Source: a virus | Virus record (IMG/VR): IMGVR_UViG_3300003322_000423 | Span: 34,590 to 98,589 of that record | Reading direction: 5' to 3' (one strand) | Length of the DNA stretch: 64,000 bases | In this document: in pieces, positions 20,495 through 20,571 of the stretch | Layout: each line of letters begins with the position of its first letter | Numbering within the stretch: position 1 is the stretch's first letter | Translations under genes and position numbers: made by a program | Notes under the pieces: model-generated | The model's input: the letters and a program-made list of their open reading frames with translations, nothing else | Told to the model about the DNA's origin: nothing | Databases searched by the model: none

Positions 20495-20571
20495 TGGAGC
20501 TAGACCGAATTGCACGGTCCTCCGGAAGCCTCCGCATGCGGCCCTACTTCCGTCGAAACTAAATTAGCCCC
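20495..20571 (-). ncRNA. mini-tmRNA: tRNA-like domain only
   Basis: GGGGCTA/TAGCTCC-A with G3.U70, stemless D-loop ending TTCGAC, P2a CGGAAG/CTTCCG, T-arm GACCG-TGCAATT-CGGTC; no mRNA-like domain. Confidence 0.75.

What the first reader, a model, noticed from the sequence alone, without database searches (positions are those of the whole stretch)
20495..20571. A 77-nt tmRNA reduced to its tRNA-like domain
Seen (minus strand): GGGGCTA ATTTAGTTTCGA CGGAAG [TAGGGCCGCATGCGGAGG] CTTCCG GAG GACCG TGCAATT CGGTC TAGCTCC A. Established: this matches the tmRNA TLD element by element (GGGGC start, G3.U70 Ala identity, stemless D-loop ending UUCGAC, P2a, 3-nt linker, T-arm), and SmpB binds the TLD. The pseudoknots and tag ORF are replaced by an 18-nt cap. 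Inference: either an SmpB decoy that blocks host trans-translation, or an Ala-charged RNA that rescues ribosomes without adding a degradation tag. Standard tRNA/tmRNA finders would probably miss it.
Basis: partly seen in the sequence, partly recalled or inferred. Interest (0 to 1): 0.87.

Follow-up and report, generated by a model that had tools for sequence, protein, structure and literature searches.

The report
Phage tmRNA reduced to tRNA-like domain
A 77-nt gene in this virus's tRNA cluster is a real, well-conserved 'headless' tmRNA: it keeps only the alanine-accepting tRNA-like part and lacks the tag message. This kind was already noted once, in mycobacteriophage DS6A, and probably interferes with the host's ribosome-rescue tagging system. 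Here it turns out to be a widespread, mostly unannotated phage RNA family.

Summary
Window 20495-20571 (minus strand) folds into a 7-bp acceptor stem with G3·U70 and A73, a stemless D-loop ending UUUCGAC, a 6-bp H2/P2a stem closed by a short hairpin, a GGAG linker and a 5-bp T-arm. There are no pseudoknots and no tag ORF.

A covariance model built from three other viral sequences, without the window, finds it end to end (53 bits, E~3e-8). The same model finds the published 'TLD-only' tmRNA of mycobacteriophage DS6A (68 bits). The kind and the SmpB-titration idea are therefore already published (Mao 2009; Hudson 2014; the 2025 tmRNA database paper), so this is a new member of a known kind.

What the held literature does not report:
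- At least 58 distinct members, including unannotated copies in cultured Streptomyces phages and one Stenotrophomonas phage.
- No members among 80 bacterial and archaeal loci that match the same pattern.
- 98% pairing, with compensatory changes in 17 of 21 pairs.
- Invariant G1-C72, G2-C71, G3·U70 and A73.
- A conserved cap architecture.

The window copy's odd features (A instead of G in the D-loop GG, G55 in the T-loop, GGAG linker) recur together in an independent metagenomic lineage with different stems. It therefore belongs to a maintained subclass and is not decaying. Function is inferred, not shown. Other first-reader notes of this scan cover this same stretch of the same genome; the look-up showed none on other DNA.

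The parts
20495..20571 (-). Whole TLD-only (CDS-less) tmRNA gene, 77 nt to the discriminator A; CCA is not encoded (next bases CGC)
   Evidence: Sequence; R1 53 bits, full length; RF00023 31.7 bits
20565..20571 (-). Acceptor stem 5' strand GGGGCUA (RNA 1-7); G3 pairs with U70
   Evidence: Fold; in the family G1-C72, G2-C71 and G3·U70 are invariant in 57/57
20552..20564 (-). Stemless D-loop AUUUAGUUUCGAC (RNA 8-20); it has AG where the family has GG
20546..20551 (-). H2/P2a 5' strand GGAAGU (RNA 21-26)
   Evidence: Structural alignment A5; all 6 pairs of this helix covary in the family
20530..20545 (-). Cap (RNA 27-42): bulge AGGG, stem CCG/CGG, tetraloop CAUG, bulge AG. It stands where the pseudoknots and tag ORF would be
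20524..20529 (-). H2/P2a 3' strand GCUUCC (RNA 43-48)
20520..20523 (-). Linker GGAG (RNA 49-52); family consensus is GGAC
   Evidence: GGAG is shared with L031 and with the L328/L384 lineage
20503..20519 (-). T-arm GACCG-UGCAAUU-CGGUC (RNA 53-69); T-loop with G55-C56
20495..20502 (-). Acceptor 3' strand UAGCUCC plus discriminator A (RNA 70-77)
20576..20617 (-). 5' leader motif (hairpin, then CAAAAACCGG) ending about 5 nt before the mature 5' end; the same motif precedes tRNA-Ala and a tRNA-Glu
20618..20691 (-). tRNA-Ala(UGC) immediately upstream on the same strand
20771..20799 (-). Sigma-70-like promoter candidate TGGACA-17-TACAAT (10/12) upstream of tRNA-Ala and the element
   Evidence: a consensus match only
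20237..20310 (-). tRNA-Asp, the next gene downstream on the same strand

Best explanation
The element is a virus-encoded tmRNA that keeps only the tRNA-like domain. It belongs to the same RNA family as the 'TLD-only' tmRNA of mycobacteriophage DS6A.

Proposed mechanism:
1. It is transcribed with the tRNA array on the minus strand and trimmed like a tRNA.
2. The host adds CCA.
3. Host AlaRS charges it with alanine through G3·U70 and A73.
4. Host SmpB binds its D-loop/T-loop elbow.

[quoted passage not shown] Having no resume codon or tag ORF, it cannot add the ssrA degradation tag. The net effect would be inhibition or bypass of host trans-translation tagging during infection.

Shown here: the structure, family membership, covariation, invariant Ala identity elements, virus-specific distribution, and absence of SmpB and of any full-length tmRNA in the virus.

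From the literature: a DS6A-like TLD-only RNA inhibits endogenous tmRNA in E. coli, and a TLD fragment with SmpB and EF-Tu binds stalled ribosomes.

Inferred: expression, processing, charging, SmpB binding and the effect in this virus's unknown host.
For: Family membership:
- R1 was built without the window and matches it end to end (53 bits, E 2.6e-8). It also matches DS6A at JN698994.1 28478-28557 (68 bits).
- RF00023 aligns the short elements of BRock, Jojan60, Shaeky and LuckySocke globally at 57-64 bits, above its cutoff. DS6A scores 43 and the window 31.7.

Selection on structure and charging:
- 57 distinct sequences are 98.1% paired, against 40-52% when partners are slid.
- 17 of 21 pairs show changes on both sides.
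- G1-C72, G2-C71 and G3·U70 are invariant, and A73 is invariant. The acceptor end was not constrained by the scan that found most members.

Integrity of the window copy:
- Every helix difference from consensus is compensatory.
- Its three odd features (A18, GGAG linker, UGCAAUU loop) recur in an independent metagenomic lineage (L328/L353/L370, L384) with different stems.
- A18 always goes with G55: window, L044, L188, the L328 group and L384. G18 always goes with U55. This fits a preserved D/T-loop contact, which is required for SmpB binding (PMC3968760, citing Barends 2002).

Dependence on the host:
- No SmpB, Pth, ArfB-like or CCA-adding gene in this genome.
- No SmpB in five other carriers.
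- No separate full-length tmRNA.

Virus specificity: 57 of the 79 newly fetched viral pattern hits are members, against 0 of 80 bacterial and archaeal pattern hits.

Context: same strand as the tRNAs, a shared leader motif and a promoter-like site upstream.

Literature: PMC4131195 and PMC11915505 (DS6A TLD-only; inhibits endogenous tmRNA in E. coli; SmpB titration proposed); PMC3968760 (Ala-TLD·SmpB·EF-Tu on a stalled ribosome, PDB 4ABR).
Against:
- The host is unknown, so its SmpB and tmRNA cannot be compared with the element.
- The window copy scores lower than most members. It lacks U55 (so no pseudouridine 55) and the consensus C of the GGAC linker, either of which could weaken SmpB binding.
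- According to Hudson 2014, inhibition in E. coli did not need chargeability. A pure sponge model therefore does not explain why the Ala identity elements are invariant, which leaves room for the tag-less rescue rival.
- Conservation of UUCGAC, GGAC and GGUUCRA in most members was partly imposed by my search patterns.
- The closest relative found through the neighbouring gene (G006, 100% complete) lacks the element, so it is accessory.
Confidence: 0.6

Rival explanations
1. Productive tag-less ribosome rescue. The Ala-charged TLD with host SmpB and EF-Tu enters stalled ribosomes and accepts the nascent chain. The peptidyl-TLD is then released by drop-off plus Pth, or by an ArfB-like factor. 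The virus gains recycled ribosomes and untagged, undegraded truncated proteins, as proposed for the CDS-less mitochondrial tmRNAs of jakobids.
For: - Invariant G1-C72, G2-C71, G3·U70 and A73 in all distinct members point to selection for charging, which a pure SmpB sponge would not need.
- 17 of 58 members encode CCA, and nearly all have C after the discriminator.
- A TLD alone can enter the A site with SmpB and EF-Tu (PMC3968760).
- CDS-less tmRNAs persist in jakobid mitochondria and in some plastids (PMC3985003, PMC11915505).
Against: - The virus encodes no release or hydrolase factor (Pth, RF-1/ArfB family).
- After peptidyl transfer there is no template to continue on, and no release route is known.
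- The only experiment summarised in the literature reports inhibition of tmRNA, not rescue (PMC11915505).
Confidence: 0.22
2. A tRNA-shaped decoy or cofactor for something other than trans-translation. Candidates are a tRNA-targeting host defence nuclease, RNase P or RNase R, AlaRS, or a phage protein that needs a tRNA-like handle.
For: - Phage tRNA arrays have been proposed as counter-defence (PMC10264068, title and abstract only).
- tRNA and tmRNA fragments are used by a phage anti-CRISPR (PMC11662646).
- 15 of 58 members sit next to tRNAs.
Against: - The conserved unpaired motifs (GG..UUCGAC D-loop, GGAC linker) are tmRNA-specific rather than tRNA-like, and the tmRNA model RF00023 recognises the family.
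- The element has no anticodon loop, the usual target of such nucleases.
- 43 of 58 members are not near tRNAs.
Confidence: 0.1
3. A decaying remnant of a once full-length phage tmRNA, produced by internal deletion and now without function in this genome.
For: - It has the lowest RF00023 score of the carriers tested (31.7 bits).
- It has a non-canonical T-loop and linker.
- The element is absent from a related complete genome.
Against: - All four helices are intact, and every stem difference is compensatory.
- The same unusual D-loop, linker and T-loop combination is kept in an independent lineage with different stems.
- The family as a whole is under strong structural selection.
- The cap architecture is shared family-wide and is not a random deletion scar.
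Confidence: 0.05
4. An aberrant or intron-containing tRNA-Ala, a permuted or two-piece tmRNA half, or an attP fragment of ssrA.
For: - It lies in a tRNA array next to tRNA-Ala.
- There is a weak partial hit to tmRNA_permuted (20.2 bits).
Against: - ARAGORN and RF00005 do not call it.
- It has no D-stem and no 7-nt anticodon loop.
- The permuted-model hit joins the 3' end of the neighbouring tRNA-Ala to the element's 5' half, which is an artefact.
- The molecule is closed by its own acceptor stem and hairpin cap, so no free strand is left to pair with a coding piece.
- An attP fragment would carry only the 3' part of ssrA.
Confidence: 0.02

Closest known systems
Mycobacteriophage DS6A 'TLD only' tmRNA (tmRNA Website tmID 11587; Mao et al. 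2009; Hudson, Lau & Williams 2014, PMC4131195; PMC11915505)
   Same: Same covariance-model family. Both are about 80 nt, with an acceptor stem carrying G3·U70 and A73, a stemless D-loop, a 6-bp H2 closed by an A-rich bulge plus a short stem and CAYG tetraloop, and a T-arm. Both are phage-encoded, and neither phage has SmpB or a full-length tmRNA.
   Different: The window copy has A18/G55 instead of G18/U55, a GGAG linker (DS6A has GCAC, the family GGAC) and a UGCAAUU T-loop. It sits inside a 25-tRNA array of an uncultured virus unrelated to DS6A, whereas the DS6A copy lies between protein genes gp33 and gp34.
Canonical bacterial and phage tmRNA (Rfam RF00023), for example the Streptomyces phage Faust tmRNA with tag ANSKNASAYALAA
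   Same: The tRNA-like domain: GGGGC start, G3·U70, D-loop ending UUUCGAC, H2 stem, GGA linker, T-arm and GCUCCA end. RF00023 aligns it globally.
   Different: No pseudoknots, resume codon, tag ORF or stop, and 77 nt against about 300-370 nt. It scores below the gathering threshold (31.7 vs 47 bits). Its cap motif is not present in the Faust tmRNA.
CDS-less organellar tmRNAs (jakobid mitochondria, Jacob et al. 2004; Mallomonadaceae plastids, PMC11915505)
   Same: The same reduction: a tRNA-like domain kept, the mRNA-like domain lost, with SmpB supplied from another genome.
   Different: An independent lineage. No Rfam mt-tmRNA hit at E up to 10 on this region. Those RNAs work in an organelle where the RNA is the endogenous rescue system, whereas this RNA enters a cell that already has a full tmRNA.
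Synthetic TLD fragments used in structural work (Ala-TLD·SmpB·EF-Tu on the ribosome, PDB 4ABR/4ABS; TLD-SmpB crystals)
   Same: The same minimal design: acceptor, T-arm, D-loop and a short capped H2.
   Different: Those are engineered truncations of bacterial tmRNA. This one is a natural gene with its own conserved cap and a variant elbow.

Membership tests
Phage TLD-only (CDS-less) tmRNA, DS6A type | Full-length match to a covariance model of the family built without the candidate | tested here: met
   R1 (seed L020, L009, L044): window 53 bits, E 2.6e-8, model positions 1-81; DS6A 68 bits
Phage TLD-only (CDS-less) tmRNA, DS6A type | H2/P2a closed directly by a hairpin cap, with no pseudoknots or ORF, and a total length of about 73-82 nt | tested here: met
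   77 nt; cap of bulge, 3-bp stem and CAUG loop
Phage TLD-only (CDS-less) tmRNA, DS6A type | Alanine identity set G1-C72, G2-C71, G3·U70 and A73 | tested here: met
   Present in the window; invariant in 57/57 distinct members
Phage TLD-only (CDS-less) tmRNA, DS6A type | Encoded by a virus that lacks its own SmpB and full-length tmRNA | tested here: met
   (the G000 record is 85% complete, so absence is not absolute)
Phage TLD-only (CDS-less) tmRNA, DS6A type | Inhibits the endogenous tmRNA when expressed (reported for the DS6A-like RNA in E. coli) | not testable with these tools
   Literature only (PMC4131195, PMC11915505); the primary paper, Mao 2009, is not held
Canonical tmRNA (RF00023) | tRNA-like domain: acceptor stem with G3·U70, stemless D-loop, T-arm | tested here: met
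   The T-loop departs from the T-psi-C consensus (G55)
Canonical tmRNA (RF00023) | mRNA-like domain with a resume codon, tag ORF and stop | tested here: not met
   Only 16 nt lie between the H2 strands; ARAGORN finds no tag peptide
Canonical tmRNA (RF00023) | Pseudoknots PK1-PK4 (or at least PK1) | tested here: not met
   No sequence is available for them
Canonical tmRNA (RF00023) | Score at or above the Rfam gathering threshold (47 bits) | tested here: not met
   31.7 bits; nothing at gathering level in the window
Permuted / two-piece tmRNA (RF04321) | Gene order of acceptor 3' piece, spacer, then 5' piece with a coding part; score at or above 47 bits | tested here: not met
   The 20.2-bit hit joins the 3' end of tRNA-Ala to the element's 5' half; the element is closed in standard order
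Jakobid mitochondrial tmRNA (Rfam mt-tmRNA) | Match to the family model | tested here: not met
   No hit at E up to 10 in the permissive scan of 20400-20640
tRNA-Ala (RF00005) | Cloverleaf with a D-stem and a 7-nt anticodon loop | tested here: not met
   Not called by ARAGORN or RF00005; no D-stem, and a 16-nt cap in place of the anticodon loop

The most novel reading that the evidence does not exclude
CDS-less tmRNAs are not a DS6A oddity. They would be a widespread, virus-specific class of small RNA that many unrelated phages of Actinobacteria, Proteobacteria and uncultured hosts use to take over the host's trans-translation. The RNA would be alanine-charged and SmpB/EF-Tu-dependent, entering stalled ribosomes and ending rescue without the ssrA degron. 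The class would include a structurally distinct subclass, of which the window copy is a member, whose tRNA elbow is rebuilt with an A18·G55 contact in place of G18·psi55.
Probability: 0.3. Interest if true: 0.75.

Novelty: new member of a known kind. Interest (0 to 1): 0.55.

Why it matters
Trans-translation is the main bacterial ribosome-rescue and quality-control pathway. How phages deal with it is poorly known.

A single TLD-only tmRNA in phage DS6A has stood in the literature since 2009 as a curiosity. This finding places the window element in the same family. It also shows that the family is common in viral contigs and absent from the bacterial loci sampled. The family is under strong selection for structure and for alanine identity. 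It is present but unannotated in cultured, tractable phages: LuckySocke, BRock and Shaeky on Streptomyces, and Jojan60 on Stenotrophomonas.

That makes the decoy-versus-tag-less-rescue question directly testable. It also exposes an annotation gap, because ARAGORN calls none of the 58 members. The A18/G55 subclass is a natural experiment on the D-loop/T-loop contact that SmpB binding depends on.

Tried and rejected
- BLAST of the element and of its 2-kb surroundings against cultured phages found nothing. Only the neighbouring tRNA-Ala matched.
- The Streptomyces phage LukeCage tRNA-Ala neighbourhood has no syntenic element.
- Relatives found through the adjacent 371-aa ORF (L061, L062) have no tRNAs and no element, either in the flanks or in the whole records.
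- A MAFFT alignment of members put the D-loop length differences at the 5' end and was unusable for a model. I replaced it with a 3-sequence seed and Infernal realignment.
- The permissive Rfam scan of the region gave only an artefactual tmRNA_permuted hit and a truncated tmRNA hit on tRNA-Ala.
- The bacterial genome scan with the short-form pattern returned 80 loci. None is a family member, so it gave no host information.
- The DNA polymerase gave no close cultured relative. Five other carriers have no homolog of it.
- The cap motif was sought in the full-length tmRNA of phage Faust and not found.
- A second RF00023 hit in LuckySocke is an ordinary tRNA-Ala.
- A viral-contig scan for the window-type T-loop variant found nothing; the metagenome scan did.
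- Mao et al. 2009 is not held.
- Complex prediction was not used, because it does not take RNA.

Full report
**1. Observation**

It lies in a same-strand array of 25 tRNA genes (19864-26663), between tRNA-Ala(UGC) at 20618-20691 and tRNA-Asp at 20237-20310. ARAGORN does not call it, and no Rfam family reaches its gathering score there.

The MFE fold is -31.9 kcal/mol, with z = -2.6 against shuffles. It contains:
- a 7-bp acceptor stem with G3·U70;
- an unpaired D region ending UUUCGAC;
- a stem closed by a small hairpin;
- a 5-bp T-stem with a 7-nt loop;
- a discriminator A.

CCA is not encoded; the next bases are CGC. A mechanical 86-aa ORF (20500-20760, minus strand) runs across this element and tRNA-Ala and is not credible.

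**2. Is it more than chance, and what is it?**

A degenerate scan of IMG/VR for the 5' half (GGGGC, 8 free bases, GTTTCGACGG) gave 58 loci. Most were chance matches. Four distinct sequences closed into the same ~80-nt shape (L009, L020 = L035, L031, L044).

I built covariance model R1 from L020, L009 and L044 only. R1 then matched the window element over all 81 model positions at 53 bits, E 2.6e-8 in 715 kb. The best true tRNA scored 19 bits.

In the same search R1 found JN698994.1 28478-28557 at 68 bits. This is the mycobacteriophage DS6A element that Hudson, Lau & Williams 2014 list as 'TLD only' (PMC4131195). The 2025 tmRNA database paper still cites it as the phage example of a CDS-less tmRNA (PMC11915505).

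The updated Rfam tmRNA model, run genome by genome, aligns these short RNAs globally:

| Element | RF00023 bits (cutoff 47) |
|---|---|
| BRock | 64.5 |
| Jojan60 | 61.8 |
| Shaeky | 59.3 |
| LuckySocke | 57.1 |
| DS6A | 43.2 |
| Window element | 31.7 |

The window hit is the best tmRNA-like hit in its genome, but it is below the cutoff. The element is therefore a tmRNA derivative, not an odd tRNA, and it is a member of the DS6A-type family.

**3. The family**

R1 confirmed 57 of the 79 newly fetched loci as full-length members. Together with the sequences already in hand, that search returned 67 matches, 57 of them distinct.

None of the 80 loci returned is a member. As sampled, the family is virus-specific.

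BLAST with a member found unannotated copies in cultured phages:

| Phage | Record and position |
|---|---|
| Streptomyces phage Shaeky | MT701595.1 42932-43010 |
| Streptomyces phage LuckySocke | OR725497.1 17977-18054 |
| Streptomyces phage BRock | KX925554.1 97143-97220, minus strand |
| Stenotrophomonas virus Jojan60 | ON045087.1 37725-37804, minus strand |

Streptomyces phages GiJojo and Alone3 also gave matches. In Shaeky, LuckySocke and BRock the element sits in a gap of a tRNA array. In Jojan60 and GiJojo an annotated 'hypothetical protein' overlaps it.

On the 57 distinct sequences:
- 98.1% of cells are paired, against 40-52% when partners are slid.
- 17 of 21 pairs show changes on both sides.
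- The covariation score is 0.75, against 0.145 in shuffles.
- G1-C72, G2-C71 and G3·U70 never vary.

The discriminator A is also invariant. The acceptor end was not constrained by the pattern that found most members. This invariance is real evidence for selection on the alanine identity set.

Other family statistics, on 58 distinct sequences including L188:
- Lengths are 73-82 nt.
- 17 of 58 encode CCA.
- Only 15 of 58 lie within 300 nt of a tRNA.
- ARAGORN calls none of them.

*The cap.* The cap has a shared architecture. An A-rich 5' bulge is followed by a 3-bp stem and a stable tetraloop. The loop is CAYG, CAAG or CUUG in 28 of 57, with several GNRA loops besides. A short 3' bulge follows. 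DS6A has the same cap. I did not find the motif in the full-length tmRNA of Streptomyces phage Faust.

**4. The window copy within the family**

It differs from positions that are at least 85% conserved at these places only:
- acceptor pair 7-66 (A-U for G-C) and one T-stem pair (C-G for G-C), both compensatory;
- A for the first G of the D-loop GG;
- G for U55 in the T-loop;
- G for the last base of the GGAC linker.

*The D-loop/T-loop association.* Three scans bear on it.
- Fixing the AG D-loop and the cap while leaving the T-loop free returned only L044 and L188 (IMG/VR; the window's own record may be left out). Both have G55-C56, in the loop GGCGGCA.
- Fixing the canonical T-loop while leaving the D-loop free returned no AG member.
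- Fixing GGAG and the UGCAAUU loop, with the base before GUUUCGAC left free, returned 72 metagenome loci. R1 confirmed five of them: L328 = L353 = L370, L382 (cut at its 3' end) and L384.

All five confirmed loci carry the A. They differ from the window in H2, the cap stem, the T-stem and acceptor pair 7.

The window's three peculiarities therefore form a conserved package in at least two lineages. A18 goes with G55 in four or five independent sequences carrying two different T-loops. I read this as a tertiary covariation that keeps the D-loop/T-loop elbow (inference). [quoted passage not shown] The copy is divergent but intact, not a decaying remnant.

**5. Genome context**

The window is bases 34590-98589 of a 98.6-kb IMG/VR record, estimated 85% complete.
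- Its family-A DNA polymerase is at most 26% identical to any cultured phage. The host is unknown and 'actinophage' is unsupported.
- Five other carriers lack a homolog of this polymerase.
- A complete relative found through the neighbouring 371-aa ORF lacks the element. The element is an accessory gene, spread patchily across unrelated phages.
- The genome has one copy and no full-length tmRNA.
- It has no SmpB, peptidyl-tRNA hydrolase, RF-1/ArfB-type factor or CCA-adding enzyme. Five other carriers also lack SmpB.
- A sigma-70-like site (TGGACA, 17 bases, TACAAT) lies at 20799-20771 on the minus strand, upstream of tRNA-Ala (a consensus match only).
This fits tRNA-like expression and processing.

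**6. Mechanism**

*Established in the literature:*
- SmpB binds the TLD elbow.
- AlaRS charges tmRNA through G3·U70.
- An alanyl-TLD fragment with SmpB and EF-Tu occupies the A site of a stalled ribosome (PMC3968760, PDB 4ABR).
- A DS6A-like TLD-only RNA inhibits the endogenous tmRNA in E. coli, chargeable or not, perhaps by titrating SmpB (PMC4131195, PMC11915505). I could not read the primary paper.

*Shown here:* the family keeps the tmRNA-specific unpaired motifs, the elbow and the alanine identity set, and depends on host factors.

*Inference:* the RNA is made with the tRNAs, matured, CCA-tailed, alanylated and bound by host SmpB. It competes with host tmRNA, and because it has no template it prevents ssrA tagging.

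The invariance of the charging determinants suggests that it acts on the ribosome as well as on free SmpB. Whether the outcome is a dead end (inhibition) or tag-less recycling, as proposed for jakobid mitochondria (PMC3985003), is open. I give about 0.6 to inhibition or bypass of tagging and about 0.2 to productive tag-less rescue.

**7. Comparison and novelty**

I did not find the following in the literature I could search:
- the size and virus specificity of the family;
- its presence, unannotated, in cultured Streptomyces and Stenotrophomonas phages;
- the conserved cap;
- the invariant alanine identity set;
- the A18/G55 subclass.

These make the finding moderately interesting and experimentally tractable.

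**8. Limits**

- Conservation of UUCGAC, GGAC and GGUUCRA is partly imposed by my patterns.
- E-values from R1 are rough because calibration was shortened.

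Noticed in passing
window 20576-20617, 20695-20738, 25293-25377 (minus strand): A repeated leader motif: a variable-sequence hairpin, then the invariant CAAAAACC(G/T)G, ending 4-5 nt before the mature 5' end of the TLD element, tRNA-Ala and a tRNA-Glu. It could be a processing or promoter-associated signal of this tRNA array.
   Followed up: partly
MT701595.1 42932-43010; OR725497.1 17977-18054; KX925554.1 97143-97220 (-); ON045087.1 37725-37804 (-); also PP725410.1 (GiJojo) and OR725492.1 (Alone3): Cultured Streptomyces phages and Stenotrophomonas virus Jojan60 carry unannotated TLD-only tmRNAs. 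In Jojan60 and GiJojo an annotated 'hypothetical protein' CDS overlaps the RNA. The Jojan60 copy encodes CCA.
   Followed up: partly
window 22222-22614 and 24050-24475 (minus strand): Two HNH homing-endonuclease-like ORFs (PHROG E 1e-25 and 3e-30) are interspersed among the tRNA genes.
   Followed up: no
window 23482-23554 and 21884-21958 (minus strand): ARAGORN calls a tRNA-Cys with anticodon ACA beside a normal tRNA-Cys(GCA), and a tRNA-Ile(UAU). Both anticodons are unusual and worth checking.
   Followed up: no
L044:3456-3537 and L188:994-1073: Two family members from unrelated viral contigs share the highly non-canonical T-loop GGCGGCA (G54, G55, C56, G57, G58) together with the AG D-loop. 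This is a second rebuilt-elbow subclass.
   Followed up: partly
window 20500-20760 (minus strand): A mechanical 86-aa TTG-start ORF spans tRNA-Ala and the TLD element. A gene caller could mis-annotate it as a hypothetical protein, as happened in Jojan60 and GiJojo.
   Followed up: no
window 20748-21863 (minus strand); L061, L062: The 371-aa ORF upstream of the array has only a weak, sub-threshold glycoside hydrolase 43 match. It has 47-56% identical relatives in two viral contigs that lack tRNA arrays.
   Followed up: partly
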